A stretch of 64,000 bases of DNA, taken from assembly GCA_963788855.1 (NCBI GenBank), contig CAWBIE010000001.1, forward strand, positions 89,437-153,436. The letters run 5' to 3'. This DNA is from an uncultured Verrucomicrobiae bacterium. Lineage in GTDB: Bacteria; Verrucomicrobiota; Verrucomicrobiia; Chthoniobacterales; UBA10450. Numbering within the stretch: position 1 is the first letter of the stretch; each line of letters starts with the position of its first letter. The translations under genes and the position numbers were made by a program. Below, in pieces: positions 46,061 through 64,000 of the stretch. The notes under the pieces were generated by a model. That model ran no database searches and was not told where the DNA came from. It was given only the letters and a program-made list of their open reading frames with translations.

Positions 46061-47188
46061 TTAGACAACCTGGAGAGATCCTTGCAGCACTGGCCGCCCG
46101 GGTTTCGACGAAGTTACTGGTGCACGTAGCGGGGGTACTTCGCACCAGCCCGCATCGTTGAAGGTAATCGACCGGCGACTAAGTTTGAGGAAGATGGACG
46201 AATCTGGAGAGAATAGGCCGCGCGTAGGAATATTGATCTCCATCCCTGTCAGGCAGCTGCCTTCCAAGGCTGCGATCGACAGGCCAGTCCCTGTGACGCC
46301 GTCGGCCATCTCCGCCTGTGCACTTTTCGCGGAAAGGCGAATAACTGCGGAACGCAGGCCGCCCCGGTACGAATAGCCAATCGTGAGAAGACTCAGATCA
46401 CGATCGACGATTTTTTTTCGCTGCGGGAGATAGATTATTAGCCGCTGCGGCTCACGGGACACAATTTGAATACCCGGTTCGGATATGGCTGCCGGCGGGC
46501 CGTCAAAAGCCAGGAATTGCTCCGGTCGCTCGGCGTAACGCAGAAAGCGATTGCGCGATAGCCTCAATTGGGTGCGGTGACACTGAATTGCTCTCACCTT
46601 TGTCGCGACTTCCCGCGGAGTCCCGGCGAGTGGCTCCGCGTCTGCAAAAAATCCGGCGTTTTTGCCGTGTACCGCGAATTGCCACGTTCTGTCCGGAGCG
46701 GTTTCCGGTGCGATTCGCCTCAAAATGACAAGCAGCATGACGGCTAGCGCATTGTGGTCCGGATGGGCGTCTGCTGTGGATGGGAAGAGGATATCGGTCG
46801 GGGCGAAATCTTCGATTAGACTCTGCAACATTGGCAGCGTGGAAGCATGCCCGCGCATAAGCAGATTAGTTAGGCCTTGATCTGGCAGTCCCAAAAAGCG
46901 CACATCTTCCAGCCGCAGACCGAGAGCAAGCAGCGCAGCTTGCGCCTCCAGTTGTCGCAATTTTCCCCAGCGAGCGCGCTCCGTCTGACCGATCCGCCAT
47001 TTTCGCTCGATTACCCGCTGCGGCCACGGGTTATTTTCACCGTCGGTTGCATACATGACGCGGACTGACGCTCCGGCCGCCACTGCTCGCTGAATTGGGA
47101 TGCTGCAGGCAAGAGACTCGTCGTCAGGGTGCGGTGCGAAAACCATCAGCCTGGACCCTTTGGTGAATGAAATTCGGGATGCTGTCAC
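46061..47188 (-). CDS. PIG-L/LmbE family de-N-acetylase with an extra C-terminal domain
   Basis: MVFAPHPDDESLACS, YATDGENN and TADAHPDHNALAVM are the PIG-L family metal-binding motifs. About 150 additional C-terminal residues of unknown function. Confidence 0.75.
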   Translation of the reverse strand: MTASRISFTKGSRLMVFAPHPDDESLACSIPIQRAVAAGASVRVMYATDGENNPWPQRVIERKWRIGQTERARWGKLRQLEAQAALLALGLRLEDVRFLGLPDQGLTNLLMRGHASTLPMLQSLIEDFAPTDILFPSTADAHPDHNALAVMLLVILRRIAPETAPDRTWQFAVHGKNAGFFADAEPLAGTPREVATKVRAIQCHRTQLRLSRNRFLRYAERPEQFLAFDGPPAAISEPGIQIVSREPQRLIIYLPQRKKIVDRDLSLLTIGYSYRGGLRSAVIRLSAKSAQAEMADGVTGTGLSIAALEGSCLTGMEINIPTRGLFSPDSSIFLKLSRRSITFNDAGWCEVPPLRAPVTSSKPGRPVLQGSLQVV

Positions 47189-47578
47189 GCCGTTACAAGA
47201 GCACTAAATGAGGAGAACAAGCGACCTTATTTTTACATAGGATTGCCCCCATTTATCCATGATAGACTGTGGACGCCGCCAATCAACCTCAGTTCGGTGA
47301 GACCGGAGCTCTCCGGTAACAAGATAGGGGTTGCGCTTAATGAGCGGGTTCGAATTTGGTAAGAAAGCAAGCCGCATCGTCCGATCGCGCGCCGATCCCG
47401 GCTTTGTTCGTTTAATCAACTTCCCAGCAGGCGAGTCCGTCGAGTGTCGATTGAATGCGCAGGCCGTGAAATTGTTCTTCGACAAGACGAAGATCGTCTG
47501 TAGTGGAGATCCCGACGAGCGGCGGAGCCGGTGGGCTTTGCTGTATTTGATCGAGCGTAAGATTCACCAAGTGAGACC

Positions 47579-47914
47579 TTAGGTCGCCGTAGAAGAGATA
47601 AAACTCCTCTGGCAGCATATGGGCCAAATCCGGAGAGCGAGTTCAGCATTCTTAAGCCGCGGAAGTGTCAACGCACTAAGCCAATACTGTAATGGTGGCT
47701 TGATCCCGGTGAGTTGAAAATTGTCGTGCACGGACCATGGACTCAACAAGAGCATTTCGCGCGAACGCTCTGCCGTGAGGAATTCAGCGTCCCCGCCTAG
47801 GAGGGTGCGATGACTTTCAAAGCCGAGCCAGCCAAAGATACAAATCGTCATCAGAGTGGCCGCTGCAATCGACCTCACAGGCGAAGGAGCGTTATCTCTC
47901 ATGGTTGACGTCAT
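47579..47914 (-). pseudogene. N-terminal fragment of an ArnT/PMT-like (GT-C) glycosyltransferase; truncated
   Basis: TM1, then GGDAEFLTAERSREMLLL...TGIKPPLQYWLSALTL...ELALRIWP is the typical first loop of GT39/GT83 enzymes. Only ~110 aa are present, and just ~390 nt of unassignable sequence remain before the next gene. Confidence 0.45.
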
Positions 47915-49702
47915 TTAATCTTTCTCGACTGCGTCTTTCGCCAGTGGCGAGAAAGGCGAAAAACCCTTTTCAGGAGCAACTGACCAAATCACAGCAAGGC
48001 GGTCGGTATCCGTGAGACTCCGGATTTCGTGGTGCCCGGCCGGGAGGTAGCGGGGACCGTCAAATGGCGTCCCATCGAGAAAAGCCACGAGGTTCCCGCG
48101 CTCGGGGAGAAGTTCGTAATTCGCAGGAATCACAATATCGAACTCATATTTTTTCGGAAATTCCTGATCGGACGTGCTGAGCATCTTTCCCAGGACCCGA
48201 ATGCGGAACGCAACCGGGAGGTAATTCTGCTCGATAAAACTGCGCGCCCGTGACGGCATTCGAAGGACTGTTGCGACTGGTGCCCGCGTCGCAATCAGGT
48301 GCTCAGGAATTTCGTCCTTAATCAGGCCGAGTTCGAGACGGCGCAGGGTCACTCCCTCCAACACATAGTAAAACGGTCTGCGCCGAAAAATCGTCTCACC
48401 TTTGGCGTCCATCACGAAATCGCTCTTTGACGTCAGAATCTGGACGTTTGCAATCATTGTGATGGTGTCACGCAAGGCACGGGGGCGCAGTGGATAGAAA
48501 AGGAGCAGCGCGACAATTTCCCCGCCAGCGACGAGTGGGAGCGCGATCGATCGGAAACGATAATCCTGGCAACAATTGACAGATTCCAACAGTGTCCAAG
48601 TCGCAGAGACAACAAGTAGAAACACCAGTGGAACAATTGGGAGAACGTCGTGCGGTTCGACGAGTGGCCAAAGAACACCGAGTAACATGCAGAACGCAAT
48701 GGAAGTTAGCGCGATCAAGGCGATCCGATCTCGCTTGGTCGCTTCAATCGCGTTGCGCCAGCTCAAATAGCCACCAACACATGCCAGAGCTGTTAAAGGA
48801 ACCAGCAATAGCACTCGTTTCGCCAGGTCCGGCCGAAACAAGCCCGGCACAACGTTGTGCTGGATTACACAGTAGTAGAGACTCGGCAGCGCCTCTTTGC
48901 GGGCAAAGAAAGCGACGACAAGTGCGGGGATGAGGAGGGCACCAAAAAGAGCCGCGGTCGCAAGGGTCATGAGGCGTTTCCAATCGAGGCCCGTTTTGCC
49001 AATGGCTTTCGAAGCAAGAATGACAATCAACGCAACGCTCAGCGATATTACCAGGGCACTCGTCTTCATTGAAGTAGCGAAGCTCGCCCCGAGGGCTAAT
49101 CCGGTGAGAAAAGCGTTCCTCAATTCAAGGGGCCGTTTGACCAGGGCCAGGACCGACAACAGCCAGAGCAGCGCCCAAAGGTCATCCGTGCGAAACTCTG
49201 TGGACTTGACAAAAAATATTGGGTAGGCGCCGGTGAGAACGGCAGTCCAGATTCCAATGCGCCGCGAGAAAAGAATCGTTCCGCACCTATAGATACACCA
49301 CAGGCACAGAAAATAGAGGGGGACCATCGCCAGGCGCATCGCAATGACGATGTCGGCCCGTTCACCCAGCGCCCGAAAAAGGGGGACACAAAGAACTTGA
49401 AAAAGCGGCGAATGATTGTCGAAAAAGTCGCGATATGGAATGAAGCCATTCGCCCAGCCCCAGACTACGTGAAGGTGTTGAGTTTCATCGGAGTCGATAC
49501 GGAGAGTGAATACGCAAACAAGTTTCAACGCTGCGAGAAGCGTGAGAAAAAAGATCGCGATGGCTCCCTCAAATCTCGCAAAGAATCCCAGGATTCGCTG
49601 CGGGACTAAATTGGCGGAATTGTCCATTGCCTGATCCACATTTTCATCGCTTTCCACGGTGCTTGTTTTCGGACGCTGGATGGGAACTCCGCGGGATTCC
49701 AA
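47915..49702 (-). CDS. Polytopic membrane glycosyltransferase-like protein (GT-C fold suspected)
   Basis: Intact 595-aa ORF. First loop RIDSDETQHLHVVWGWANGFIPYRDFFDNHSPLF with an acidic DxDE-like motif, about 10 TM helices, C-terminal soluble domain. Family assignment is tentative. Confidence 0.45.
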   Translation of the reverse strand: MESRGVPIQRPKTSTVESDENVDQAMDNSANLVPQRILGFFARFEGAIAIFFLTLLAALKLVCVFTLRIDSDETQHLHVVWGWANGFIPYRDFFDNHSPLFQVLCVPLFRALGERADIVIAMRLAMVPLYFLCLWCIYRCGTILFSRRIGIWTAVLTGAYPIFFVKSTEFRTDDLWALLWLLSVLALVKRPLELRNAFLTGLALGASFATSMKTSALVISLSVALIVILASKAIGKTGLDWKRLMTLATAALFGALLIPALVVAFFARKEALPSLYYCVIQHNVVPGLFRPDLAKRVLLLVPLTALACVGGYLSWRNAIEATKRDRIALIALTSIAFCMLLGVLWPLVEPHDVLPIVPLVFLLVVSATWTLLESVNCCQDYRFRSIALPLVAGGEIVALLLFYPLRPRALRDTITMIANVQILTSKSDFVMDAKGETIFRRRPFYYVLEGVTLRRLELGLIKDEIPEHLIATRAPVATVLRMPSRARSFIEQNYLPVAFRIRVLGKMLSTSDQEFPKKYEFDIVIPANYELLPERGNLVAFLDGTPFDGPRYLPAGHHEIRSLTDTDRLAVIWSVAPEKGFSPFSPLAKDAVEKD

Positions 49703-49795
49703 CCATTTTTAGCGTTCATGTCCTTAAAAAAACTGGGTTTGTGGGCTTTCCTGTAGTATAGATAACTGCCGTTTCCGCTAAGCTTTTGAAGCCCG

Positions 49796-51442
49796 ATGCA
49801 CGCCGCTTTTTATCAGTCTGAACTTGATCAGCCGCACCCGAACCGTGCGCGCGCTATCATAAGTGCGCATCCGGAGGTTCGGCAGTTAATGGTGAGAAAC
49901 CCATACACTGCGCTCATCGCTCTGTCGGTCGTGGTTCTGCAAACATCAATCGCGTATCTGATGGGCAGATTAGGATTCAGTTATTGGTGGCTCAGTATGT
50001 TGGTCGCCTACTGCGTGGGCGCCTTCGCCAATCACTGCAATTACGTCATTATCCACGACGCGACCCATAACCTGATTCTTCGCAGCAAGAGCTGGAACAA
50101 AATAGTGGGAATCATGGCCGATCTTCCCAACCTCACGGCCGGTGCGATGGGCTTTCGTGTTTACCATCTCAAGCACCATTCGCATCAGGGGAATTACGAA
50201 TGGGACGCTGATTTGGCCAACCATTGGGAGGCACGGCTCGTCGGCAATAAATGGTATCGCAAAGCGATCTGGCTGATGCTCTTCCCGTTCTTCCAGCTAA
50301 CGCGCCCGCCGCGTCTGAAGGCGATCACGATGTGGGATCGATGGTTTCTGATCAATCTCGTCTGGGCGGCGGCTTACGATGTGGCGGTGGTTTATTTTTG
50401 CGGATGGGCCGGGCTGCTTTACCTGGTTTTTTCGTTTTTCTTTTCCATCGGCCTTCATCCGGTAGGTGCCCGCTGGATCCAGGAGCATTACACCAACGAT
50501 CCGGAGCAGGAGACCTACAGCTACTACGGGCCGATCAACTTCCTGGCCCTGAACATGGGTTATCATAACGAGCACCACGATCTGCCTTCGATTCCATGGA
50601 ATAATCTGCCGAAACTGCGGGCAATGGCGCCGGAATTTTACGATAATCTGAAGTATCACTCATCCTGGAGCCGGCTCCTTTTCCAGTTCATTTTCGATCC
50701 GCGTTACACGTTGTTCTCGCGAATCGAGCGCGCCAAAGAGAGAAAGGACGGCTCGTCTTATGTCGCGACCGGAAGAGTAGACCGGACAGGGCCGGTCGCT
50801 TTGCCGCCGAAGCGACCAGCCTTTAGCCCCATGGAACAACTCTACGTCTCGAACAAAAACGAAACGGTCCGCATGTTTGAGAGCGACTTCATGGAATTCT
50901 GCTCCCACGTGCATCCGGCCACACCCGTGATCTTGTACATGCCGGTCGTTGGCTACATGCTTTACGCCTCTTTTGCGCACAAGAAATTGTCGATCCTGGC
51001 GGTGGCGGGGTTATTTGTGATCGGGGTGCTGATCTGGACGCTTCTCGAGTACATCATACACCGCCACGTTTTTCATTATGAACCAAAGAGCCGGTGGGGA
51101 AAAAAACTGCACTTTATTGTCCACGGCGTGCACCATGATTATCCGAATGATGCCACCCGGCTGGTCATGCCACCTAGTGTGAGCATTCCGCTGGCGATTG
51201 TATTCTGGGTGCTTTTTGCCGCGACACTGGGCCGGTTCGCGCCGGCCGTCTCCGCCGGATTTGGATTTGGCTACGTCTGTTACGACAGTATTCATTACGC
51301 GACGCACCACTTTGCTATGAAGCGAGGGGTTGGGCTCTGGCTGAAACAGTATCATCTTCGCCATCATTATAAGGACGATGAGGCGGGTTATGGGGTCAGC
51401 TCCCCTCTCTGGGATTACATTTTCCGGACCACCCGCAAGTAG
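49796..51442 (+). CDS. Fusion protein: sphingolipid Delta4-desaturase (DEGS1/DES1-like) N-terminal domain + fatty acid 2-hydroxylase (FA2H/Scs7-like) C-terminal domain
   Basis: Residues 1-~320 align by eye with human DEGS1, with His boxes [15 protein letters not shown] and [34 protein letters not shown] (human: [30 protein letters not shown]). Residues ~345-548 align with the FA2H catalytic domain: [63 protein letters not shown]. A single uninterrupted 548-aa ORF. Confidence 0.85.
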   Translation: [548 protein letters not shown]

Positions 51443-51686
51443 GGCCTGATCTGGCAAAATCCGAACGAACTCGGGCAAGACTGGCCCCACTAAAATCTTG
51501 TGGGGCGTCGTAGAATCGCTACAGTAGTTGCCCCGACATGGGACTCTATCGCGCGCGGCCCTGGAAGCCCCGGCGGGAGAGCCTACCCATAAGGTAATTA
51601 CCAATTCCTCGAAATATTATGAGCAGCCATGTGCTTGTGAACGAACAACATCTTATTGCCGGGGGCGGCATCACGGGCGCGTGGCG

Positions 51687-52940: not shown

Positions 52941-52961
52941 GACGGGTTCGATTGCGATTTA

Positions 52962-53888: not shown

Positions 53889-53913
53889 GGTCATATAAGT
53901 TTGCTCCAATCTC

Positions 53914-56402: not shown

Positions 56403-57111
56403 TCAATTTCCGGGCATGTTCCAGCGTCTCGGCCGAATCGACATCCTGCCACCATGCGTTGCCGATATCGATCGCCCGAACTTTTCCATCAGCGGCCATC
56501 AATCGGACACCATCGGCCAGACTGCAATCTCCATCGCGTTTCGCTTTCTCCAGACATGCGAAAATCTCCGGCGAACAAACAAACAAGCCGGTATCGATTG
56601 CGTCGTAGTCTTCGAGGTTTTTGCCGATCGCAACGAGCCGGTCTTTGCGCGTCTGGACTTTCATTGCGTCATCTAAATCGAAAATGCAATCAAGTTTTCG
56701 GTCGACCGCGAGAGTCAGTTCATTGGCGTTGGAGCTTCTCAGGAGAAGATCGACAATCGAGTCTTCAAAAATATGGTCGCCCATTGTCAGGATAAATGGT
56801 GCATTCACGCTAGGGGCCGCTGCCAGCACAGAAATGCCATTTTGTTTCTGCCACTCCGGGTTTTCGATCCAAAATAAATTCATGCCAGTAGGAATCAGTG
56901 GCATTATTCCCGCCCGCAGCGAATCGCTCTCGAATCCAATGACAGCGTGAATCGTTTCGATGCCTGCCTTGGCGAGGGTGTCCAAAGTGTAAGAAATGAG
57001 AGGCCGCCCGCTCAGAGAGATGAGCGGTTTGGGCGAATTCTCGCCACTGCGCCGCAGCCGCGAGCCCGATCCGGCCATAAGAATGACCGCGTTAGAGATC
57101 GGCTTCTTCAT
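56380..57111 (-). CDS. Nucleotidyltransferase (sugar/alcohol-phosphate cytidylyltransferase-like)
   Basis: AVILMAGSGSRLRRSGENSPKPLISLSGRPLISYTLDTL is the canonical NTP-transferase N-terminus. 243 aa. The 23-nt overlap with the downstream fusion gene suggests coupling. Confidence 0.75.
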   Translation of the reverse strand: MKKPISNAVILMAGSGSRLRRSGENSPKPLISLSGRPLISYTLDTLAKAGIETIHAVIGFESDSLRAGIMPLIPTGMNLFWIENPEWQKQNGISVLAAAPSVNAPFILTMGDHIFEDSIVDLLLRSSNANELTLAVDRKLDCIFDLDDAMKVQTRKDRLVAIGKNLEDYDAIDTGLFVCSPEIFACLEKAKRDGDCSLADGVRLMAADGKVRAIDIGNAWWQDVDSAETLEHARKLIATRNND

Positions 57112-57485: not shown

Positions 57486-58525
57486 GTGAAGTCGCGGATC
57501 GTTCGGGAGATTGAAAACATTCGGGTCGGCAGAACCAACATCGACCGTCGGCAATTGGTGATAAGCCGGATCATGACGATATTGGTCGGAACTTTAACGG
57601 CGATCGGTCAGTTTGCCTACTCGTCGTTATGGGGACGACGGCAAGCACGATTCATTCGGCAGCTTTTGTCCCACGCTCCCTCGACCCCGAAAGGCCGCGT
57701 GATTGCTTCGTTTTCAACCTTGCCGGATCGAATCAATAATCTCGAGCCAACACTTCGTTCTCTCCTTGAGCAAACACGGCCGCCGGATGAAATCGTCCTG
57801 GCCGTCCCCCAGTTTTCGATCCGTCAACAAAAAAGAGTACGTCGTCCCTAACTATCTCGAGCAAATTCCGCGTCTCCGCATTTTGCGCTGCTCAAACGGA
57901 CTGGGGACCGGCGACGAAATTCATTCCAGTTATTCAAGAGGAGCTGGCCGCCGGTCGCGGTGACACGTTGATTATGGTCCTGGATGACGACCGAGTCTAC
58001 CCGCGGGATGCACTCGAAACGTATCTGCACTACCACGCACGATTGCCGGAGGCCGCGCTTTGTTTTCGCGGTGCACTGATGCCCGACAATTTCGTTTGGT
58101 TTTTACCCAAACTGTTTCCTGCCAACCAAATTCGCGAGCCGAGACGTGTGGCCGTGATCACGGGTACCGCAAGTTATCTTATCCAACCGCGCTTCTTCGA
58201 CTCTGCGCTCTGGGATTACTCCACTTCGCCAGCGAGCGCGTTTTACGTCGACGACATCTGGATTAGCGGTTGCCTGGATCGGCGTGGCATCGAAAAATAT
58301 GTCGTGCCCGCATCCGCCATGATGCGAACCGTCCGAAAGCAATGGGGCACGATGACCCTGTACGATGTGCCAAAGGGCTCCGTGCGGAGCAATACCGAGG
58401 CGATCAAGTTTTTTCGCGATACATGGAATATTTTCTCGTGGCCGTTTGGTCTTGATTATCGACTGCGCGCTCTTCTTCTAGTGTGGCCGGGAACATGGCG
58501 CGCGCGACGAAATAAGCTTTTATAG
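57486..58525 (+). pseudogene. GT-A fold glycosyltransferase (DxD type); two frameshifts as given
   Basis: VIASFSTLPDRINNLEPTLRSLLEQTRPPDEIVLAVP / KEYVVPNYLEQIPRLRILRCSN / DWGPATKFIPVIQEE...LIMVLDDDRVYP...YVDDIWISGC is read across ORFs 57486, 57703 and 57968, with shifts near 57830 (A6 run) and 57898. Confidence 0.6.
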
Positions 58526-59323
58526 TCCGTAGTATTGCTTAAGGCCCCAGATGCGCACTCGCTGCGGGAGTAACCGGAAGATAACGGGCGCGAATTTGGA
58601 TTGGAATCTATCGCCGACTGTCAGGCGCGGCGAGGGATTGACCTGATCGATTAACGCGCAGACGCGTTGGGCAACGAGGTCAGGCCTTGGTGCCCCCTTC
58701 ATGTTGCGTTCGACTGCAGCCCAAACTCTCGCCACCTTAGCGTCATATCGCGGATCTTTTGACGAGCCTTTGCTAATGGCGTCATTAAAGGAGGTGTTAA
58801 TATCCGCCGGTTGCAGGTCGACAATGCGCACGCCTGTATTAGGCAACTCGAGCTGGATCGACATGGTGAAGACCGCCATGGCTGCCTTTGCCGAGTTGTA
58901 GGCTGCCATGAAGGGTACCGGCAAGCGCGAAGCCAGCGAGGTGACGTTGATGATGAGACCCTGTTCTCGCGATCGCATCGCGTGTAGCGCCAGGCGCATT
59001 AAGTGCAGCTGTCCGAATACCAGGACTTGGAATTGATTTTCGATTTCTTCGTCGGAGAGATTTTCCGCTGGTCCAAAATGGCCGCTGCCACCGTTGTTAA
59101 TCAAGACATCGAAGTGGTCAGCTTCTGCGAGCGCGGCGTTGAACGCGTGGTCGATCAAAGCGGCATCGCCGAGATCAAGTCGCACCGGGTGTAGTCGATC
59201 CAACTTTGCCATTCGGCTCGGATCGCGCGATGTTCCCCAGACTTCATCCCCACGGCCGGTTAGCGATCTTGCGATGGCAAGGCCAATGCCGGAACTCGCG
59301 CCAGTGAGAAAAATTCGCTTCAT
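58520..59323 (-). CDS. Short-chain dehydrogenase/reductase (SDR)
   Basis: IFLTGASSGIGLAIA (TGxxxGxG), LINNGG, and the catalytic YNSAKAA (YxxxK). 4-nt overlap with the upstream GT-C-like gene. Confidence 0.85.
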   Translation of the reverse strand: MKRIFLTGASSGIGLAIARSLTGRGDEVWGTSRDPSRMAKLDRLHPVRLDLGDAALIDHAFNAALAEADHFDVLINNGGSGHFGPAENLSDEEIENQFQVLVFGQLHLMRLALHAMRSREQGLIINVTSLASRLPVPFMAAYNSAKAAMAVFTMSIQLELPNTGVRIVDLQPADINTSFNDAISKGSSKDPRYDAKVARVWAAVERNMKGAPRPDLVAQRVCALIDQVNPSPRLTVGDRFQSKFAPVIFRLLPQRVRIWGLKQYYGL

Positions 59324-60819
59324 GAGGTCTGTCCACGATCAATCAAGAACAATCGTAAGAAGTGGTGCTTCACATAGATGACGGGCGAACGGCTGAAGTC
59401 CGCCAAGGGCAAGCGGCGCCAGCCCTCGGGCAAGCGGAAATTTTCATCGTCCGTATAGACCGCGGCGGCGCCTTTTGTCATCTCCCGCAATATATCAGGC
59501 GGCGGGATATGAAGAATGGTGATGAACTCCGGAGCATACCACTCAGCGTGACGCCCAGTGTGGGGGAAGAGGAGTGCGACGTGGCTCCGGGCCGAGCTCG
59601 GATAAAGTCTTTCGAGATACCGAACCAATCGGATAGGAGGCGCCTCCTCGCGATGATTAGTGATTGCTAGGGGGATCGTTATGAAAAGGAGCAAGGCTGG
59701 CAGGGCCAGCGTGCTCCAATCCCAGGGTGCCGGCAGGCGCAAGAACCCGCGCAGCAATGCGATCAGAATAAGAGGAAAAATAATGAGGTAATATCGCTCG
59801 GCGCCATCGAGACAGATGAAAATGGTCGCGAAGTGCAGCAATGCCCAAGGCGCGTGAAAGCTCCAGAAGAGCCGGTCTTCGGCTTCCCGAGGCCGAGATA
59901 AGTAAGCGGCCAATCCGAAAATCACCATCACTGTCCCGACTGCGAGAGCAATCGGCGATTGAAGAAAACCGAAGCCGAGAGCAAACCAAAAAAGAGTATG
60001 TTCACCGAGGCGCATGGCGAGATAATGCAGGCTCCAATCGCCCGCGCCGATGTAAACGTGCGGTTTATCCAACCGCCATTGCCATTGTCCATAAAGGAGT
60101 TTTGGATAGACCAGCCATGCTGGAGCCGACGGTCTGAGGCGCGCTTGCAGATACCACATCGGCACAAGCCAGAGCAGGCATGCCGCGAGCAACGTGCTGA
60201 GGCTAGAGAGCCACGCCTTCCAGGGCGATGACCTTTGCCTCAACGCCGTGACAAGAATGACAGCGACAACGAGAATCAGTTGCGGGCGCGTTCCGGCAGC
60301 CGCGGCGCCAAGCAGAGATGCGGCCAGCAAAGCCCGCCGGCGTCCACTCCGCAAAAAGCAAAGCGCCGCGAAAATTTCGGCGCTGAGAAATCCGGTGGCG
60401 AGACTATCGCTGAGGACTTTTGTGGCCGTCATCCACACGGCGGGTGTGATGGTAAGACAGACGGCTATCCAGCAGGCGAGTCGCTCATTGAATTGCAACC
60501 GGATAATAAGAAACCACATGGCGACAAAAAGCGCGCCGCCGAGGCTGGAAACGAGGTGGAGAGAATCCTCCGGGCTGGCGCCAAATTCGTGGCCGATCCA
60601 ACCGAAAAAGATAAACAATGGATATCCGGGGGGGTGCGGTTGGTGTTCCCAAATATTGAAATTGCGAACCCCCATCGCGAACTGCACCGAATCGTATTCA
60701 TCGAGTCCCGGAGAACGTGAGATAAAATAGAGGGAGAAAGCGATGACAAAAATCAGCGCGGTCTTCAGCGAGGCGCGCGAATCAAGCCAATCCGGCGCGG
60801 TCATTTTCACTTTCAGCAT
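59320..60819 (-). CDS. DUF2723-like/GT-C polytopic membrane glycosyltransferase
   Basis: Intact 499-aa ORF. First loop SPGLDEYDSVQFAMGVRNFNIWEHQPHPPGYPLFIFFGWIG resembles the HPPGYPL signature also seen in 40220-42046. About 11 TM helices. Confidence 0.55.
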   Translation of the reverse strand: MLKVKMTAPDWLDSRASLKTALIFVIAFSLYFISRSPGLDEYDSVQFAMGVRNFNIWEHQPHPPGYPLFIFFGWIGHEFGASPEDSLHLVSSLGGALFVAMWFLIIRLQFNERLACWIAVCLTITPAVWMTATKVLSDSLATGFLSAEIFAALCFLRSGRRRALLAASLLGAAAAGTRPQLILVVAVILVTALRQRSSPWKAWLSSLSTLLAACLLWLVPMWYLQARLRPSAPAWLVYPKLLYGQWQWRLDKPHVYIGAGDWSLHYLAMRLGEHTLFWFALGFGFLQSPIALAVGTVMVIFGLAAYLSRPREAEDRLFWSFHAPWALLHFATIFICLDGAERYYLIIFPLILIALLRGFLRLPAPWDWSTLALPALLLFITIPLAITNHREEAPPIRLVRYLERLYPSSARSHVALLFPHTGRHAEWYAPEFITILHIPPPDILREMTKGAAAVYTDDENFRLPEGWRRLPLADFSRSPVIYVKHHFLRLFLIDRGQTS

Positions 60820-60957: not shown

Positions 60958-62343
60958 TTGATTTCGATTTTACGTCGCTGGCTCAGTCTAACCTTAAGCC
61001 GTAGTGCGCCGCAAGATCTCGGTGAGCGCCGGGCACGTGGTATTTTTCAAGGGACCGCCTTTGGAATCGTGGCGCGTGTCCTGAACGTTCTGGTAACGAT
61101 CGTCTCGGTTCCCCTGACTATTGGCTACCTGGGAGCCGAGCGCTACGGCGCGTGGATCACTATCGTCGGTCTGCTCGCCTTTCTCGGTTTCACGGACTTC
61201 GGTCTGGCCCAGAGCCTCACGAACGCTTTGGCCAGGGCGGATGCGGAAGACGCACGCCATGTCGGTCAACGTTACGTCTCATCAGCCTTCTTCGTACTTT
61301 CGTTGATCGCGTTGTTTGTTCTTGCTCTGGGCACGACTCTTTCGCCGCGCATTGCCAATCTTTTGTTTCCGCAAGTTCAGTCGCCGGCTGCGCGCGCCGA
61401 GATTGTCATCGCTATCGGGGCTGCGCTCGCCATTTTCGCGCTGAACATTCCTTTCCTCATTACCGAGCGGGTATTGGCTGCTCACCAAGAAACTGCTTTT
61501 GGCTATCTTTGGCAGATTGCGGGAAGCGTGGCCAATCTGGTCGCACTGCTCACCGTCATCTGGCTTCGGGGCGGACTTTTCTGGTTGGTGCTAAGCTGCT
61601 TCGGCTTACGCCTGATTACCGGCCTAACGAGTGCGATTTGGTTGTTTACCATTCGGAAGCCTTGGTTGCGGCCAAAATTTTCCGGCATCGATTTGACCGC
61701 TGCCAAGAGCCTTCTTTCTGACGGTTGGAAGTTCTTCGTGATTAACATCGGGTGGATGGTCAACTCGCAAACGGACAACATGGTTATCGCACATTATCTG
61801 GGCCCAGCTCAGGTCACTCCCTATGCGGTTACGTTTGGCTTGTTTATGGCGGCGACCCTGTTGCAGACGGTCGCGTACCCTTCGCTCTGGCCCGCTTACA
61901 CGGATGCTTTCGCGCGACGCGATTACAGTTGGATTAGGCAGACCATGCGTTCAAATTTCATGTTCAGCCTTTTTACGACTTCTTTGGTTGTGAGTGTGCT
62001 GACAATTTTCGGATCTCAGATCATTCGACTGTGGGCCGGCAATCTCGCGGTGCCCCCGTTTTCGGTCATTATCTGGATGGCGATCTGGCGGCTCATGCTA
62101 TCGACGCTTTTGGTCGGCAGTTGTCTGCTCAACGCTACCGGTCATCTCAAAGGCATGACAATCTACGGCACGATGACCGCGGTCTTGAACCTTATCTTTT
62201 CAATTCTGCTTGTCAGGACCTACGGCATCGCCGGGGTCATCGCCGGAACCGTTATCGCCTTTGCCATCGCCAACTACATTCCAACATTTTTGGAAGTACG
62301 AAGTGTGTTGCGAAAAATTTCCTCGGCGCCAGCAACAGCATAA
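60958..62343 (+). CDS. Wzx-like oligosaccharide/lipid-linked glycan flippase (MOP superfamily)
   Basis: Intact 461-aa ORF with ~12-14 TM helices and the usual polysaccharide-flippase layout (N-terminal basic stretch, GYLGAERYGAW, repeated 6-TM halves). Confidence 0.65.
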   Translation: MISILRRWLSLTLSRSAPQDLGERRARGIFQGTAFGIVARVLNVLVTIVSVPLTIGYLGAERYGAWITIVGLLAFLGFTDFGLAQSLTNALARADAEDARHVGQRYVSSAFFVLSLIALFVLALGTTLSPRIANLLFPQVQSPAARAEIVIAIGAALAIFALNIPFLITERVLAAHQETAFGYLWQIAGSVANLVALLTVIWLRGGLFWLVLSCFGLRLITGLTSAIWLFTIRKPWLRPKFSGIDLTAAKSLLSDGWKFFVINIGWMVNSQTDNMVIAHYLGPAQVTPYAVTFGLFMAATLLQTVAYPSLWPAYTDAFARRDYSWIRQTMRSNFMFSLFTTSLVVSVLTIFGSQIIRLWAGNLAVPPFSVIIWMAIWRLMLSTLLVGSCLLNATGHLKGMTIYGTMTAVLNLIFSILLVRTYGIAGVIAGTVIAFAIANYIPTFLEVRSVLRKISSAPATA

Positions 62344-62377
62344 GTGTTATTCCATCGAAATGTGGCACGGGGGTTGA

Positions 62378-63544
62378 CTATTTCACCGATTGCGATGCCG
62401 GCAACCACGTTGCGATCTCGCGATAAATGGAAACTGTCTCGATAGCCATTCTTTTCCAATCGAACATGGCGGCGCGCTGAATTCCCCGTGCCGAAAGCGA
62501 TTGCCGGAGATCGGCGTCGGCTACGACGCGACGCATGGCTTGGGCTATTCCATTCTCGTCCTGTGGTGCAAACGAGAGGGCGGCGTCTCCCACGACCTCG
62601 GGCAAAGATGTGACATTAGAGCAGATGACAGGGCAACCGCAGGCCATGGCTTCGAGCACGGGAAGGCCAAAGCCTTCGTACAGTGATGGGAAAACAAGCG
62701 CCTCGGCTCGATTATAGAGCGCAATAAGTTCCTCGGTCCTGACTTCGGCCCGGACATTTATTCGCTCCTCAAGTTGCGAGTGTCGAAGAGCCTGTCGAAG
62801 CTCTCGCGGAAGTGTCCGGGCCCGCTCGATGACGAGCAGATGAATGCCATCCGACACTCGGAAGGCCTTTGCGAAGGCGGACACGGCGCCAACGTGATTC
62901 TTGTTCTGGGAACCGCCGCCCAGGACGAGGAAGAAACGTTGGCCTGGAGGAACAACTGACGAACTGACTCGTTCGGCACAAGCTTTCTCCATCGGGCGGA
63001 ACGCCGGCGATTTGCCGAGGAGTGTCACACGGAGTCGCGAGGCGCAGGAAGAGTCCAGCCGGAGGATGTCATCCGCGCTATAATGGCTGACCGCAACTAT
63101 CCGGTCAGCCCGACGGATGGCGTCGCGGATGGCGAGCGACCAGTACTTCTTAATCATGCTTCGCACCAGCGGGTGGGGAAAAACGAGTTCGGGACAGACG
63201 ATGTACATAACATCGTGCATGGTGATGACACTCTTCGCATCGAGCCCTTTGGGGAGGATCCGGTATGGAGCGTGAAAGAGGTCGTGGCGGTCGAGCCGCG
63301 CCTTGAGCCAGCGCCCCAGGCGGAAATAAGACCAGGGGCTATTCGGTTCCCCACCGAGGATCCACTCCGTGACGTTGGGCGCACACGAAAGTGGCACCGA
63401 CTTGGCGGAATGCCGGATAAGGATAATGGGCACGTCGGGCAAAAGCGATGGCAGGTGTTCGATGAGCGCCTCGGTGTACGAAACCACGCCGCCCGGCGCA
63501 CCGCGCAGGTAGCGCGCGTCTAAAATGACACGACCCCGATTCAT
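62378..63544 (-). CDS. GT4 family (GT-B fold) glycosyltransferase
   Basis: C-terminal EX7E region ALVFPSLYEGFGLPVLEAMACGCPVICSNVTSLPEVVGDAA. Intact 388-aa ORF. Confidence 0.85.
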   Translation of the reverse strand: MNRGRVILDARYLRGAPGGVVSYTEALIEHLPSLLPDVPIILIRHSAKSVPLSCAPNVTEWILGGEPNSPWSYFRLGRWLKARLDRHDLFHAPYRILPKGLDAKSVITMHDVMYIVCPELVFPHPLVRSMIKKYWSLAIRDAIRRADRIVAVSHYSADDILRLDSSCASRLRVTLLGKSPAFRPMEKACAERVSSSVVPPGQRFFLVLGGGSQNKNHVGAVSAFAKAFRVSDGIHLLVIERARTLPRELRQALRHSQLEERINVRAEVRTEELIALYNRAEALVFPSLYEGFGLPVLEAMACGCPVICSNVTSLPEVVGDAALSFAPQDENGIAQAMRRVVADADLRQSLSARGIQRAAMFDWKRMAIETVSIYREIATWLPASQSVK

Positions 63545-63574
63545 CGTGACGATCGCGCCGGGCGGCGCTCGATT

Positions 63575-63589
63575 AAAAAAAACCCCCCC
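63575..63589. repeat. Homopolymer junction A8C7 in the divergent promoter region between two glycosyltransferase genes
   Basis: gatt AAAAAAAA CCCCCCC tcg, 31 nt upstream of the GT4 start (63544) and ~92 nt upstream of ATG 63681. Confidence 0.9.
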
Positions 63590-63680
63590 TCGATATTCCG
63601 CTCCGAAAAAATATGATAGGTTGTATTTGGGAACATGCCCTTCTGAAAAGTTCCCGGTCGGTCTTCCGACGTTGGTTCAA

Positions 63681-64000
63681 ATGATTTATCTTGAAGTAAC
63701 AACTTCGTCCAAATCCGTAAGAAACACAGGAATTCAGCGGATCACGCGAAAGATTTTTCAAGAGTTGGCCGCACGCGTTTCGGTTATACCGGTCTCGTGG
63801 AATAAAATCAACCGGCGCTTTCAACTTCTCTCTCCCACGGAGCTGGCCACGCTCGAGACGCCATTTCGCGTTCAATCGCGTCCCACAACCCATCCCGAGC
63901 TCAAGGGAGAGAGTCTACTGGCCGACGCTTATCGCCTGGTTTTTGGCAAAACGTTACGTCTCGAAGACGAGATGAGACCGGGTGACGTTTTTTTGATGCC
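63681..64000 (+). CDS. Glycosyltransferase (GT-B type, N-terminal part); runs off the window
   Basis: Open frame from ATG 63681 to the window end: MIYLEVTTSSKSVRNTGIQRITRKIFQELAARVSVIPVSWN... The TGIQR(V/I)TR start is typical of GT4-like mannosyl/glucosyltransferases. Not in the ORF track because it is open-ended. Confidence 0.5.
   Translation, partial: MIYLEVTTSSKSVRNTGIQRITRKIFQELAARVSVIPVSWNKINRRFQLLSPTELATLETPFRVQSRPTTHPELKGESLLADAYRLVFGKTLRLEDEMRPGDVFLM

What the first reader, a model, noticed from the sequence alone, without database searches (positions are those of the whole stretch)
46061..64000. Hypothesis: glycan extension machinery resembling GPI/GIPC assembly around the sphingolipid genes
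Flanking the lipid core are a PIG-L family de-N-acetylase (46061-47188), a GT4 enzyme (62378-63544) and a second GT-B gene (63681-). There is also a GT-A enzyme (57486-58525), two full GT-C/DUF2723-like polytopic transferases (47915-49702, 59320-60819), one GT-C fragment, and a Wzx-like flippase (60958-62343). In eukaryotic GPI synthesis a GT4 enzyme (PIG-A) adds GlcNAc to an inositol lipid. PIG-L then de-N-acetylates it, the intermediate flips, and GT-C mannosyltransferases extend it on the far side of the membrane. Mycothiol (MshA/MshB) uses the same GT4 + PIG-L logic on inositol phosphate. The same parts list next to a putative phosphoceramide synthase suggests a GlcN-containing glycosyl-phosphoceramide, a bacterial analogue of GIPC/GPI-type lipids. 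This is inference from the gene inventory only. These genes could equally belong to an ordinary exopolysaccharide or O-antigen locus placed nearby.
Basis: inference. Interest (0 to 1): 0.66.

Follow-up and report, generated by a model that had tools for sequence, protein, structure and literature searches.

The report
Sugar-decorating genes inside a bacterial sphingolipid cluster

Summary
The gene inventory is real. PIG-L/LmbE deacetylase, two PMT_2-type GT-C enzymes, a deleted GT-C remnant, a MOP/Wzx-type flippase and two GT4 genes are all present. The GT-A gene is broken by two 1-nt insertions.

The lipid core carries a strong inositol signal: an IPCT-like cytidylyltransferase and two inositol-type CDP-alcohol phosphotransferases. 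A myo-inositol-1-phosphate synthase lies about 7.5 kb beyond the window end, behind a MacB/HlyD/OEP exporter. No Wzy, Wzz or initiating phosphoglycosyltransferase was found in the window or in the 10 kb beyond it.

Across about 60 related Chthoniobacterales loci the layout recurs: [ceramide + inositol-phosphate genes] – [variable glycosyltransferase/flippase slot] – [ABC–MacB–HlyD–OEP–OEP] – MIPS. A cytoplasmic GT plus a MOP flippase is nearly constant. GT-C, GT4, GT9 and PIG-L content varies.

PIG-L is locked to GT-C1 as an adjacent pair in at least 21 loci. The pair lies inside the sphingolipid cluster in about two thirds of informative cases. In three loci a PpgS/ArnC-like GT2 follows it. 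This fits an Arn/Lgm/PpgS-type route (polyprenyl-P-HexNAc, then deacetylation, flipping and GT-C transfer) better than GPI-type GT4→PIG-L chemistry.

Verdict: a glycosyl-inositol-phosphoceramide cluster is likely. The GPI-like mechanism is only partly supported. All of this is sequence inference.

The parts
46061..47188 (-). PIG-L/LmbE-family de-N-acetylase with a C-terminal Ig-like domain. No TM segment or signal peptide, so cytoplasmic. Partner of GT-C1.
   Evidence: Pfam PF02585 E=2e-22. Family alignment with invariant HPDDE/HPDH. AF2 pLDDT 83.5 and Foldseek hits to Orf2*, TT1542, BshB and MshB at E 1e-9 to 1e-7. No TM segments.
47415..47914 (-). Remnant of a second GT-C gene: N-terminal ~90 aa and C-terminal ~67 aa, with about 950 nt deleted internally.
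   Evidence: tblastn of the L082 494-aa GT-C. Residues 20-109 map to 47887-47618 and residues 426-492 to 47618-47415, in different frames.
47915..49702 (-). GT-C1, a PMT_2/ArnT-type polytopic glycosyltransferase. Conserved adjacent partner of PIG-L.
   Evidence: Pfam PMT_2 E=8e-7. Eight TM-like segments. Adjacent to PIG-L in at least 21 loci.
49796..51442 (+). Sphingolipid delta-4 desaturase (to ~50830) and fatty-acid/sphingolipid hydroxylase (from 50831), read here as one ORF.
   Evidence: Pfam Lipid_DES + FA_desaturase + FA_hydroxylase. All 120 best homologues are ~342-aa DES only. The junction differs from relatives by one T before the TAG stop.
51528..52940 (+). Serine palmitoyltransferase-like alpha-oxoamine synthase.
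   Evidence: Aminotran_1_2 E=5e-53. NCBIfam SPT models 310-313 bits, below cut-offs. Present in all 40 core loci.
52962..53888 (+). CDP-alcohol phosphotransferase (CDP308) with the canonical motif. Proposed CDP-inositol:ceramide inositolphosphotransferase.
   Evidence: PF01066 E=3e-11. Best NCBIfam hits are archaetidylinositol-P synthase, DIPPS and PIPS. Best PDB hit AF2299/PIPS at 1.4e-9. Motif DNVDGQLARx8Gx3Dx3D; canonical in 35/37 family members.
53914..55047 (+). GNAT acyltransferase, a bacterial ceramide-synthase-like position.
   Evidence: Acetyltransf_1 E=2e-10. Present in 34/40 core loci. 30-33% identical over full length to the GNAT beside SPT/DES in Beijerinckiaceae loci.
55071..56402 (-). 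CDP-alcohol phosphotransferase (CDP443), DIPPS-like, with a ~200-aa N-terminal extension and a conserved variant motif.
   Evidence: NF041135 DIPPS half E=1.5e-14. PDB 4mnd at 3.7e-6. Motif DGxDGKxARx8Gx2Ex3D in 11/12 family members.
56380..57111 (-). Inositol-1-phosphate cytidylyltransferase-like NTP transferase, proposed to make CDP-inositol.
   Evidence: NF041135 IPCT half E=7e-38. The three best PDB hits are IPCTs at E~1e-22 versus 8e-10 for the next.
57486..58525 (+). GT-A (GT2-like) glycosyltransferase, a core member of the cluster in relatives. Frameshifted here by two 1-nt insertions.
   Evidence: Intact homologue PF00535 E=2e-6. Family of 1755 proteins. Present in 7/12 loci with enough flank.
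58520..59323 (-). SDR, 3-ketodihydrosphingosine-reductase-like.
   Evidence: adh_short E=5e-40. NF049977 KdsR 159 bits, below its cut-off.
59320..60819 (-). GT-C2, PMT_2-type.
   Evidence: PMT_2 E=9e-9. Orthologues beside SDR or PIG-L in L001, L009, L086, L091, L096 and L168.
60958..62343 (+). MOP-superfamily (Wzx-like) flippase.
   Evidence: NF041503 E=6e-10. About 10 TM-like segments. The L168 orthologue (61% identity) has Polysacc_synt/MurJ Pfam hits.
62378..63544 (-). GT4 retaining glycosyltransferase.
   Evidence: Glycos_transf_1 E=2e-26. Best PDB and NCBIfam relatives are generic GT4s including MshA, GlgM, PimA and BshA, all below cut-offs.
63681..64000 (+). 5' end of a second GT4 (419 aa on an independent contig). 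Beyond it lie ABC ATPase, MacB/FtsX, HlyD adaptor, two OEP genes and MIPS.
   Evidence: The same tail is seen in L087 and in L167 and L168.

Best explanation
Window 46-64 kb is most of a ~35-kb supercluster found in Chthoniobacterales (Candidatus Udaeobacter-like Verrucomicrobiota). I read it as a pathway to build, glycosylate, flip and export an inositol-phosphoceramide-type sphingolipid.

**Inferred steps**
1. SPT, SDR, GNAT, DES and FA2H make a hydroxylated, desaturated ceramide.
2. MIPS (just past the window end) makes inositol-1-phosphate. The IPCT-like NTP transferase converts it to CDP-inositol. A CDP-alcohol phosphotransferase (CDP308 and/or CDP443) puts phospho-inositol on ceramide.
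3. A cytoplasmic glycosyltransferase adds the first sugar or sugars. This is GT-A in most relatives, and GT4s here.
4. A MOP flippase moves the lipid, or a polyprenyl-linked sugar donor, across the inner membrane.
5. PMT_2-type GT-C enzymes extend the headgroup on the periplasmic face, using polyprenyl-phosphate sugars.
6. The MacB-type ABC/HlyD/OEP machine carries the product to the outer membrane.

**PIG-L.** The PIG-L deacetylase works as a unit with GT-C1. Most probably it de-N-acetylates a polyprenyl-P-HexNAc donor, so that GT-C1 transfers a free-amine hexosamine. ArnC/ArnD/ArnT, Bordetella GlcN, Francisella FlmK and mycobacterial PpgS/Rv3779 use this logic. Acting on GlcNAc-inositol, as in GPI or mycothiol synthesis, is less likely.

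**Shown versus inferred.** Shown: gene families, motifs and conserved neighbourhoods. Inferred: every substrate and the order of steps.
For: **Inositol signal**
- IPCT-like NTP transferase.
- Three inositol-type CDP-alcohol phosphotransferase families with conserved motifs.
- MIPS at the cluster end, beyond the window and in L087, L044 and L167.

**Ceramide genes**
-.

**Conserved architecture**
- In 40 DES-anchored core loci, SPT, GNAT, CDP308 and NTP recur.
- Of 12 loci with at least 4 kb beyond NTP, 11 have a MOP flippase and 7 have GT-A.
- GT-A-anchored loci L167-L169 all read [SPT…SDR] – [GT-C/flippase/GT4 or GT2] – [ABC-MacB-HlyD-OEP] (–MIPS).
- L168 reproduces the window's right half: GT-A, SDR, GT-C2 at 61%, Wzx at 61%, GT4' at 39%.

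**Rearranged but retained**
- The GT-C1/PIG-L pair sits upstream of DES in the window, L031, L081, L082 and L164.
- It sits downstream of the flippase in L087, L090 and L097.
- It lies between Wzx and GT-C2 in L096.

**PIG-L with GT-C1**
- Adjacent and co-directional in at least 21 loci, at 31-62% identity.
- Followed by a GT2 whose best model is polyprenyl-P-GalNAc synthase PpgS (E=1.4e-34) in L099. The same GT2 family follows the pair in L104 and L116.
- DPM1/ArnC-like GT2 genes also sit beside the sphingolipid genes in L017, L052 and L169.

**Precedents**
- Arn pathway (PMC4402001).
- PpgS/Rv3779 with an unidentified deacetylase (PMC9671496).
- A CDP-alcohol phosphotransferase that acts on ceramide, CPES (PMC9550178).

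**No polymer-pathway genes**
- No PGT, Wzy or Wzz.
Against: - There is no chemistry. Every substrate is inferred.
- The window has no PpgS/ArnC-like GT2 (tblastn negative).
- The GT-C1/PIG-L pair also lies in housekeeping contexts with no sphingolipid gene within 10 kb (L092, L165, L166). PIG-L occurs alone in L083 and L093. Its acceptor therefore need not be the sphingolipid.
- PIG-L is absent from L167-L169.
- GT9 (heptosyltransferase-like), WaaA and AsmA genes nearby leave LPS as a possible target.
- All relatives belong to one order, so part of the synteny could be inherited rather than selected.
- CDP443 has a non-canonical catalytic motif.
- GT-A is frameshifted in this window.
- The window's Wzx-type flippase is not detectably related to the flippase conserved in most relatives (hhalign probability 0.8%).
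Confidence: 0.5

Rival explanations
1. GPI/mycothiol-like order. A GT4 (or the GT-A) puts GlcNAc on the inositol of inositol-phosphoceramide at the cytoplasmic face. PIG-L de-N-acetylates it to GlcN-inositol-P-ceramide. The Wzx-like protein flips it, and the GT-C enzymes extend it.
For: - All parts are present in the window.
- L096 has one contiguous block GT4-Wzx-GT-C1-PIG-L-GT-C2 directly beside NTP, CDP443, GNAT, CDP308 and SPT.
- GT4 lies next to PIG-L in L088 and L102.
- The characterised inositol-directed LmbE enzymes (MshB, PIG-L) share the fold.
- MshA and PimA are among the GT4's best solved relatives.
- The GT-A profile weakly touches alpha-GlcNAc transferases: heparosan synthase 6e-4, KfiA 0.06.
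Against: - GT4 is not co-conserved with PIG-L. It is absent from L087, L090, L097, L099, L116, L165 and L166.
- The constant partner of PIG-L is a GT-C, and in three loci a PpgS-like GT2 as well.
- The GT4 matches to MshA and PimA are generic C-terminal-domain similarity, far below family cut-offs.
- The PIG-L model shows no preference for MshB over BshB, teicoplanin deacetylase or chitobiose deacetylase.
- The GT-Cs are not PIG-M/V/B-type.
Confidence: 0.2
2. The glycosyltransferase, flippase and PIG-L genes serve another envelope glycan (LPS core or lipid A modification, or protein O-glycosylation). They sit beside the sphingolipid genes only because outer-membrane biogenesis genes cluster in this lineage.
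For: - WaaA, AsmA-like and GT9 heptosyltransferase-like genes are part of the neighbourhood.
- ArnT/FlmK-type GT-C plus deacylase systems are known to modify lipid A.
- The GT-C1/PIG-L pair occurs away from sphingolipid genes in L092, L165 and L166.
- The glyco content is highly variable, like O-antigen loci.
Against: - The glyco slot lies between the ceramide/inositol-phosphate genes and MIPS in the window, L087, L044, L167 and L168.
- The pair stays in the cluster despite rearrangement.
- About two thirds of informative close PIG-L homologues lie in the cluster.
- No PGT, Wzy, Wzz or O-antigen ligase was found.
Confidence: 0.2
3. The inositol genes do not act on ceramide. MIPS, IPCT and the DIPPS-like enzymes make di-myo-inositol phosphate (a solute) or a glycerolipid such as phosphatidylinositol. 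The ceramide then has a different or no phospho-headgroup, and the GIPC analogy fails at its base.
For: - The closest characterised relatives of NTP and CDP443/CDP248 are the DIP-synthesis enzymes IPCT/DIPPS.
- The Bacteroides 'alternative' cluster is proposed to go through PI-DAG and needs a HAD hydrolase for transfer to ceramide (PMC9246714). No HAD gene is seen here.
Against: - CDP308 is wedged between SPT and the GNAT in 33/40 loci.
- Two or three membrane CDP-alcohol phosphotransferases per cluster exceed what DIP synthesis needs.
- DIP is known from hyperthermophiles (my own knowledge, not tested here), not soil mesophiles.
- A CDP-alcohol phosphotransferase acting directly on ceramide has precedent.
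Confidence: 0.12

Closest known systems
Eukaryotic GIPC / MIPC synthesis (IPC synthase followed by Golgi glycosyltransferases) and GPI-anchor assembly (PIG-A, PIG-L, flip, GT-C mannosyltransferases)
   Same: Predicted product class: a ceramide carrying inositol phosphate and sugars. It uses a DEGS-type desaturase and an FA2H-type hydroxylase. An LmbE/PIG-L-fold deacetylase is present. Topology is split between cytoplasmic GTs, a flippase and GT-C enzymes.
   Different: Phospho-inositol would come from CDP-inositol through CDP-alcohol phosphotransferases, not from PI through AUR1. The GT-Cs are PMT_2/ArnT-type, not GT22/50/76. PIG-L is coupled to a GT-C, not to a PIG-A-like GT4. The N-acyltransferase is a GNAT, not a Lag1-type ceramide synthase. 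No ethanolamine-phosphate transferases are present.
Polyprenyl-phosphate aminosugar modification systems: ArnC/ArnD/ArnE-F/ArnT (L-Ara4N on lipid A), Francisella FlmK (GalN), Bordetella GlcN, mycobacterial PpgS/Rv3779 (GalN on arabinogalactan)
   Same: An ArnT/PMT_2-type GT-C is encoded next to a de-N-acylase. In L099, L104 and L116 a PpgS/ArnC-like GT2 follows. A flippase is encoded nearby. The logic yields a free-amine sugar on an envelope lipid.
   Different: The deacylase has an LmbE/PIG-L fold rather than ArnD's fold. The flippase is MOP-type, not ArnE/F. The GT2 is missing from this window. The likely acceptor is a sphingolipid headgroup rather than lipid A phosphate or arabinan.
Bacteroides inositol-lipid clusters (BT_1522-1526, and the unconfirmed B. 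vulgatus/Prevotella 'alternative' cluster: MIPS + NTP transferase + CDP-alcohol phosphatidyltransferase + HAD hydrolase; Heaver et al. 2022, PMC9246714)
   Same: MIPS, an NTP transferase proposed to make CDP-inositol, and a CDP-alcohol phosphotransferase are clustered. The end product is thought to be an inositol-phosphoryl sphingolipid.
   Different: No HAD hydrolase. Two or three CDP-alcohol phosphotransferases are physically interleaved with SPT, GNAT and SDR. Extra glycosylation and export modules are present. The phylum and habitat differ.
Bacterial ceramide synthesis (Spt, GNAT-type bCerS, CerR) as in Caulobacter, and its glycosphingolipid/ceramide-phosphoglycerate branches
   Same: SPT, a GNAT acyltransferase and a reductase sit in one cluster. 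Headgroup-modifying enzymes are encoded nearby.
   Different: An SDR KdsR-like reductase, eukaryote-type DES and FA2H genes, inositol-phosphate headgroup genes, GT-C/PIG-L modules and a MacB-type exporter. I could not compare sequences with Caulobacter proteins here.
DevBCA-HgdD / MacAB-TolC type tripartite ABC exporters
   Same: ABC ATPase + MacB/FtsX permease + HlyD adaptor + OEP genes are attached to a glycolipid-synthesis cluster. From my own knowledge, DevBCA-HgdD exports heterocyst glycolipids.
   Different: Two OEP genes. The substrate is untested, and a generic efflux role is not excluded.

Membership tests
GPI-anchor-like / GIPC-like assembly line | An inositol-phospholipid acceptor is made by the same gene set | tested here: met
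   Met at gene level only. IPCT-like NTP transferase, inositol-type CDP-alcohol phosphotransferases, and MIPS at the cluster end. No lipid chemistry.
GPI-anchor-like / GIPC-like assembly line | A PIG-A/MshA-like GT4 GlcNAc transferase functionally coupled to the deacetylase | tested here: not met
   GT4 accompanies PIG-L only in the window, L082, L088, L096 and L102. It is absent from the other PIG-L loci. GT4 scores are far below the MshA cut-off: 69.7 versus 462.5 bits.
GPI-anchor-like / GIPC-like assembly line | PIG-L/LmbE-fold zinc deacetylase with intact catalytic motifs | tested here: met
   PF02585 E=2e-22. Invariant HPDDE and HPDH. LmbE fold. Substrate not determined.
GPI-anchor-like / GIPC-like assembly line | GT-C mannosyltransferases of the PIG-M / PIG-V / PIG-B (GT50, GT76, GT22) families | tested here: not met
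   Both GT-Cs hit PMT_2 only. Glyco_transf_22 gives E=4.8 for GT-C2, and no PIG-M or PIG-V models match.
Arn/Lgm/PpgS-type polyprenyl-P-aminosugar modification | ArnT/PMT_2-type GT-C encoded next to a de-N-acylase | tested here: met
   GT-C1 and PIG-L are adjacent in at least 21 loci. The deacylase fold differs from ArnD.
Arn/Lgm/PpgS-type polyprenyl-P-aminosugar modification | GT2 polyprenyl-phosphate (N-acyl)aminosugar synthase in the same gene set | tested here: inconclusive
   Absent from the window. Present right after the pair in L099, L104 and L116, with PpgS as best model at E=1.4e-34, below its cut-off. Present beside the sphingolipid genes in L017, L052 and L169.
Arn/Lgm/PpgS-type polyprenyl-P-aminosugar modification | Deacylase acts on the polyprenyl-P-linked sugar; acceptor is an envelope lipid or polymer | not testable with these tools
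   Needs enzyme assays and lipid analysis.
Wzx/Wzy-dependent O-antigen or exopolysaccharide locus | Initiating phosphoglycosyltransferase, Wzy polymerase and Wzz chain-length regulator | tested here: not met
   None among Pfam/NCBIfam hits for the ORFs scanned across the window, or in the 10 kb beyond its end. One polytopic 626-aa protein (41976-43856) has no family hit, so it cannot be excluded as an unusual polymerase.
Bacteroides vulgatus-type alternative inositol-lipid cluster | MIPS + NTP transferase + CDP-alcohol phosphatidyltransferase + HAD hydrolase | tested here: not met
   The first three are present. No HAD hydrolase was found in the window or in relatives' clusters. Definition from PMC9246714.
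IPCT/DIPPS (di-myo-inositol-phosphate synthesis) | IPCT domain plus DIPPS domain with canonical DX2DGX2ARX8GX3DX3D | tested here: inconclusive
   The IPCT-like protein is clear. CDP248 is canonical in relatives (24/24). The window's CDP443 has the variant Gx2Ex3D. All scores are below the equivalog cut-off of 580 bits.

The most novel reading that the evidence does not exclude
Candidatus Udaeobacter-like Verrucomicrobia are, from my own knowledge, among the most abundant soil bacteria. On this reading they make a eukaryote-style glycosyl-inositol-phosphoceramide through a CDP-inositol route. Its glycan is strain-variable and includes a free-amine hexosamine, installed by an LmbE-deacetylase/GT-C pair. 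A dedicated MacB-type machine exports the lipid to the outer membrane. That would be a bacterial counterpart of plant and fungal GIPCs with O-antigen-like variability. The LmbE/GT-C(/GT2) module would also be a new, widespread way of adding hexosamine to envelope lipids, supplying the kind of deacetylase still unidentified in the mycobacterial PpgS/Rv3779 pathway.
Probability: 0.3. Interest if true: 0.8.

Novelty: new variant of a known kind. Interest (0 to 1): 0.6.

Why it matters
Bacterial sphingolipids are known from few lineages. Inositol-phosphoceramides in bacteria have been characterised mainly in gut Bacteroidetes, and their CDP-inositol route is still unconfirmed (PMC9246714). My full-text searches found no paper linking Verrucomicrobia, Udaeobacter or Chthoniobacter to sphingolipid or inositol-lipid synthesis.

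If the reading is right:
- A dominant soil clade carries a self-contained pathway that joins eukaryote-type ceramide tailoring, a CDP-inositol headgroup route, a variable glycan slot and an exporter.
- This gives a testable candidate for bacterial sources of GIPC-like lipids in soil.
- It gives a candidate direct CDP-inositol:ceramide transferase.
- It gives a compact LmbE + GT-C (+ PpgS-like GT2) module for adding amino sugars to envelope lipids.

If it is wrong, the region is still a useful example of how glycan genes can sit inside a lipid cluster without sharing its substrate.

Tried and rejected
1. **Early conclusion that PIG-L is almost never syntenic with the sphingolipid genes.** The first tblastn against 80 DES-anchored loci found it only in L031. 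I rejected this. In many relatives the pair lies more than 10 kb from DES, outside the fetched flank. PIG-L-anchored loci show this.
2. **Prediction that the PIG-L pair is a standard downstream member of every cluster.** Tested with three GT-A-anchored loci and rejected. L167-L169 lack it.
3. **Using the independent Logan contig to decide whether the GT-A frameshifts are assembly errors.** That contig ends before the informative sites, so it gives no answer.
4. **Sequence searches of GT-C1 and GT-C2 against solved structures.** No hits at E<1.
5. **AF2 model of GT-A.** Too poor (pLDDT 53.5) to fold-search. The profile search against PDB gave only weak hits.
6. **hhalign of the window's Wzx group against the flippase conserved in relatives.** No detectable relation. 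They are treated as different MOP families filling the same slot.
7. **Fold search of PIG-L to discriminate substrates.** All LmbE enzymes match about equally.
8. **Metagenome scan for close PIG-L relatives.** It returned only homologues at 46% identity or less. These were still useful for the pair analysis.
9. **Literature.** NaxD paper PMC3841722 is not held. The Lgm search gave nothing usable.
10. **MIPS detection.** The L087 hit was then confirmed by Pfam.

Full report
**Source and scope.** The window is about 57% G+C. Its sphingolipid desaturase is 73-88% identical to proteins from soil Verrucomicrobiota, named Spartobacteria, Chthoniobacterales or Candidatus Udaeobacter in the source records. 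The window's PIG-L protein is on record from a 734.5-kb contig. Everything below is sequence inference. No chemistry was available.

**Observation check.** The inventory holds.

| Gene | Coordinates | Main evidence |
|---|---|---|
| PIG-L | 46061-47188(-) | PF02585 E=2e-22; invariant HPDDE/HPDH motifs; no TM segment |
| GT-C1 | 47915-49702(-) | PMT_2, polytopic |
| GT-C2 | 59320-60819(-) | PMT_2, polytopic |
| GT-C fragment | 47415-47914(-) | two ends of a 494-aa GT-C intact in L082; ~950 nt deleted internally |
| GT-A | 57486-58525(+) | conserved 292-336 aa GT2-like family, split over three frames |
| Wzx-like | 60958-62343(+) | NCBIfam WZX_like 6e-10 only |
| GT4 | 62378-63544(-) | Glycos_transf_1 E=2e-26 |
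| Second GT4 | 63681- | 419-aa GT4 on an independent contig |

- The AF2 model of PIG-L (pLDDT 83.5) has an LmbE fold plus a C-terminal Ig-like sandwich.
- GT-A is split by two 1-nt insertions relative to L017, one of them in an A-run.
- The Wzx-like protein has about ten TM-like segments. Its 61% orthologue in L168 carries Polysacc_synt/MurJ Pfam hits.

**What the lipid core says.** The genes between the glyco genes are:
- DES and FA2H (one ORF here)
- an SPT-like oxoamine synthase
- a 308-aa CDP-alcohol phosphotransferase (CDP308)
- a GNAT
- a 443-aa CDP-alcohol phosphotransferase (CDP443)
- an NTP transferase
- an SDR resembling KdsR

The NTP transferase is IPCT-like. It matches NF041135 at 7e-38. 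Its three best solved relatives are all inositol-1-phosphate cytidylyltransferases at about 1e-22, and the next hit is at 8e-10.

CDP443 aligns to the DIPPS half of IPCT/DIPPS. CDP308 is closest to archaetidylinositol-phosphate synthase, DIPPS, PIP synthase and AF2299.

CDP308 has the canonical DX2DGX2ARX8GX3DX3D motif. The CDP443 family carries a conserved variant, Gx2Ex3D.

An identical copy of the window's GT4 lies on a 16.4-kb contig. That contig shows what follows the window: the second GT4, an ABC ATPase, MacB/FtsX, a HlyD-type adaptor, two OEP genes and then myo-inositol-1-phosphate synthase.

A CDP-alcohol phosphotransferase acting on ceramide has precedent in insect CPES (PMC9550178). 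A CDP-inositol route has been proposed, but not confirmed, for Bacteroides and Prevotella (PMC9246714).

**Comparative genomics, DES-anchored.** I fetched 80 genome loci anchored on DES.
- 40 of them, labelled Chthoniobacterales, Ca. Udaeobacter or more broadly Verrucomicrobia apart from a few records carrying other phylum names, carry SPT plus CDP308 or NTP. The recurrent order is DES-FA2H-SPT-CDP308-GNAT-(second CDP-alcohol phosphotransferase)-NTP-SDR.
- Of the 12 loci that extend at least 4 kb past NTP, 11 have a MOP flippase and 7 have the GT-A.
- At first sight PIG-L, GT-C1, Wzx and GT4 looked almost never syntenic. That was a flank artefact.

**Comparative genomics, PIG-L-anchored.** Loci anchored on PIG-L homologues show that GT-C1 followed by PIG-L is a tight, co-directional pair in at least 21 loci, at 31-62% identity.
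- For close homologues (41% identity or more) with informative flanks, the pair lies inside the sphingolipid/inositol cluster in the window, L081, L082, L085, L086, L087, L090, L091, L096, L097 and L164.
- L031, whose PIG-L is only 35% identical, has the same arrangement directly upstream of DES.
- L088 and L102 have a cluster-type GT4 beside PIG-L.
- The pair lies in housekeeping contexts in L092, L095, L165 and L166.
- PIG-L is alone in L083 and L093.

The pair's position inside the cluster differs between genomes:
- directly upstream of DES (window, L031, L081, L082, L164);
- after flippase-GT9-GT-C (L087, L090; L097 has GT-A-flippase directly before the pair);
- between Wzx and GT-C2 (L096).

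Retention despite rearrangement argues for functional linkage.

**The supercluster.** Pfam confirms the order in L087: CDP-alcohol PT, NTP, MOP flippase, GT9, GT-C, GT-C1, PIG-L, CDP443, MacB, HlyD, OEP, OEP, MIPS.

Three loci anchored on the GT-A (L167-L169) all read [SPT…SDR] – [GT-C, flippase, GT4 or GT2] – [ABC-MacB-HlyD-OEP], with MIPS visible in L167. L168 reproduces the window's right half: GT-A 72%, SDR 73%, GT-C2 61%, Wzx 61%, second GT4 39%.

A compact version appears in L044. There, a GT4 and a flippase are the only genes between NTP and the ABC ATPase and MIPS.

The conserved feature is therefore a slot for glycosyltransferases plus a flippase. It is bracketed by ceramide/inositol-phosphate synthesis on one side and an exporter plus MIPS on the other. 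Its contents vary: GT-A, GT4, GT2, GT9, four or more GT-C lineages, two flippase families (not detectably related), and PIG-L. None of L167-L169 has PIG-L, so the PIG-L/GT-C1 pair is an accessory module.

**Polymer-pathway test.** No initiating phosphoglycosyltransferase, Wzy, Wzz or O-antigen ligase appears among the family hits for the ORFs scanned across the window, or in the 10 kb past its end. One polytopic 626-aa protein (41976-43856) has no family match and cannot be classified.

**Mechanism of the PIG-L step.** The data show GT-C-PIG-L coupling instead.

In L099, L104 and L116 the pair is followed by a ~245-aa GT2. Its best NCBIfam model (scored on L099) is the polyprenyl-phospho-GalNAc synthase PpgS (1.4e-34, below cut-off), followed by AglJ, dolichyl-P-hexose transferase and ArnC. 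Related DPM1/ArnC-like GT2 genes sit beside DES or SPT in L017, L052 and L169.

This triad matches known routes that put amino sugars on envelope molecules:
- ArnC, ArnD (deformylase, encoded next to ArnT), ArnE/F and ArnT; Francisella FlmK; Bordetella GlcN (PMC4402001).
- PpgS/Rv3779, whose deacetylase is still unidentified (PMC9671496).

I therefore favour PIG-L acting on a polyprenyl-P-HexNAc donor for GT-C1. The GPI-like alternative is not excluded. L096 has GT4-Wzx-GT-C1-PIG-L-GT-C2 in one block beside the lipid genes, and the window itself lacks the GT2. Fold comparison does not discriminate substrates. GT4 similarity to MshA and PimA is generic.

**Rivals.**
1. The exact GPI-like order (0.2).
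2. The glyco genes serve LPS or another envelope glycan (0.2). WaaA, AsmA and GT9 in the neighbourhood favour this. The bracketing by MIPS and the retention of the pair argue against it.
3. The inositol genes make DIP or PI rather than IPC (0.12).

**Data-quality caveat.** The window has several broken or oddly joined genes:
- GT-A, with two insertions.
- DES-FA2H, joined by loss of one T before the TAG stop that relatives have.
- BipA, split into two ORFs.
- YebC, truncated.

Related long-read contigs show similar fragmentation of MacB/FtsX. Assembly indels are a likely cause. The GT-A 'pseudogene' and the DES-FA2H 'fusion' should not be taken at face value.

**Novelty and verdict.** Full-text searches found nothing on sphingolipid or inositol-lipid synthesis in Verrucomicrobia, Udaeobacter or Chthoniobacter.

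The cluster is a new variant of known kinds: bacterial sphingolipid clusters, the Bacteroides inositol-lipid clusters and Arn-type modification systems. A glycosyl-inositol-phosphoceramide cluster is likely, and the GPI-style GT4→PIG-L chemistry is the weaker of two mechanisms. Interest 0.6.

Noticed in passing
window 49796-51442 (junction ~50815-50833): The apparent DES-FA2H fusion ORF (548 aa) differs from relatives by one T. Relatives read TTT-TAG(stop)+2-4 nt+ATG. The window reads CCTTTAGCCCCATG, which puts FA2H in frame. All 120 best DES homologues are ~342 aa and unfused. This is probably an indel (assembly error or recent mutation), not an established fusion.
   Followed up: partly
window 19195-19974, 20081-21061, 21502-21966: BipA/TypA is split into two ORFs in different frames, and only residues 20-65 of the first match the GTPase domain. 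YebC lacks its N-terminal part. Together with the GT-A frameshifts, this suggests indel errors in the assembly.
   Followed up: partly
window 32072-49796, especially 32160-32237: In many relatives WaaA is followed by an MMPL-family transporter and then DES. Here only a 26-aa MMPL remnant (88% identical) is left after WaaA. A ~17.7-kb different block lies between WaaA and DES: cyclase, TPR, PTP-like phytase, sulfatase, amidase, MetA-like outer-membrane barrel, two GT-C-like genes, M13 peptidase, PIG-L and GT-C1.
   Followed up: partly
window 35217-36197 (-): A PTP-like phytase (inositol polyphosphate phosphatase family, PF14566 E=5e-28) lies 14 kb upstream of DES. A link to inositol supply or headgroup dephosphorylation is possible but not examined.
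   Followed up: no
window 40220-42046 (+) and 41976-43856 (+): A strong TMEM260-like/DUF2723 GT-C (E=2e-34) is followed, with a 70-nt overlap, by a 626-aa polytopic protein (about 10 TM segments plus a C-terminal soluble domain) with no Pfam or NCBIfam hit even at E<5. Only the M13 peptidase separates them from PIG-L. They were not found beside the cluster in relatives.
   Followed up: partly
window 55071-56402 (-), and L001, L005, L026, L029, L035, L039, L046, L081, L087, L096: The CDP443 family has a conserved non-canonical CDP-alcohol phosphotransferase motif, DGxDGKxARx8Gx2Ex3D. Glu replaces the third Asp and sits one residue closer to the Gly. It also has a ~200-aa N-terminal extension of unknown function.
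   Followed up: partly
L099 14-3943; L104 76-2010; L116 7-2434: A three-gene module: GT-C, then LmbE/PIG-L deacetylase, then a PpgS/AglJ/ArnC-like GT2, on metagenome contigs with no sphingolipid genes in view. It is a candidate complete polyprenyl-P-HexNAc→HexN transfer system that uses an LmbE-fold deacetylase.
   Followed up: partly
beyond window end; L087 14273-21011; L167 14393-21041: A conserved tail of ABC ATPase, MacB/FtsX, HlyD adaptor and two OEP genes lies between the glyco slot and MIPS. It may be a dedicated lipid exporter.
   Followed up: partly
L001 16771-17748 and 10 other loci (e.g. L002, L005, L026, L029, L096 11311-12219): A radical-SAM protein (PF04055 E=9e-22) recurs between the CDP443-type gene and NTP in relatives. 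It is absent from the window. Role unknown.
   Followed up: no
L087 4866-7651; L090 3140-5907; L167 391-3249; L168 1-1996: A GT9 (heptosyltransferase II-like, E=5e-18) and a ~505-aa PMT_2 GT-C form a second conserved adjacent pair inside or beside the cluster. Neither is in the window.
   Followed up: partly
window 3470-4648 (-) and 5812-6858 (-): A second class I/II aminotransferase-fold oxoamine-synthase-like gene lies near a zinc alcohol dehydrogenase. This looks like a Kbl/Tdh threonine-degradation pair, not a second SPT.
   Followed up: no
L002, L006, L034, L038 record titles: Several loci with 71-85% identical DES genes come from MAGs labelled Acidobacteria, Actinomycetes, Chitinophaga or Bacteroidetes. 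At least L002 and L006 have a fully Udaeobacter-type gene order, which suggests mis-binned contigs. The Bacteroidota ones have different neighbours and may reflect transfer of DES alone.
   Followed up: no
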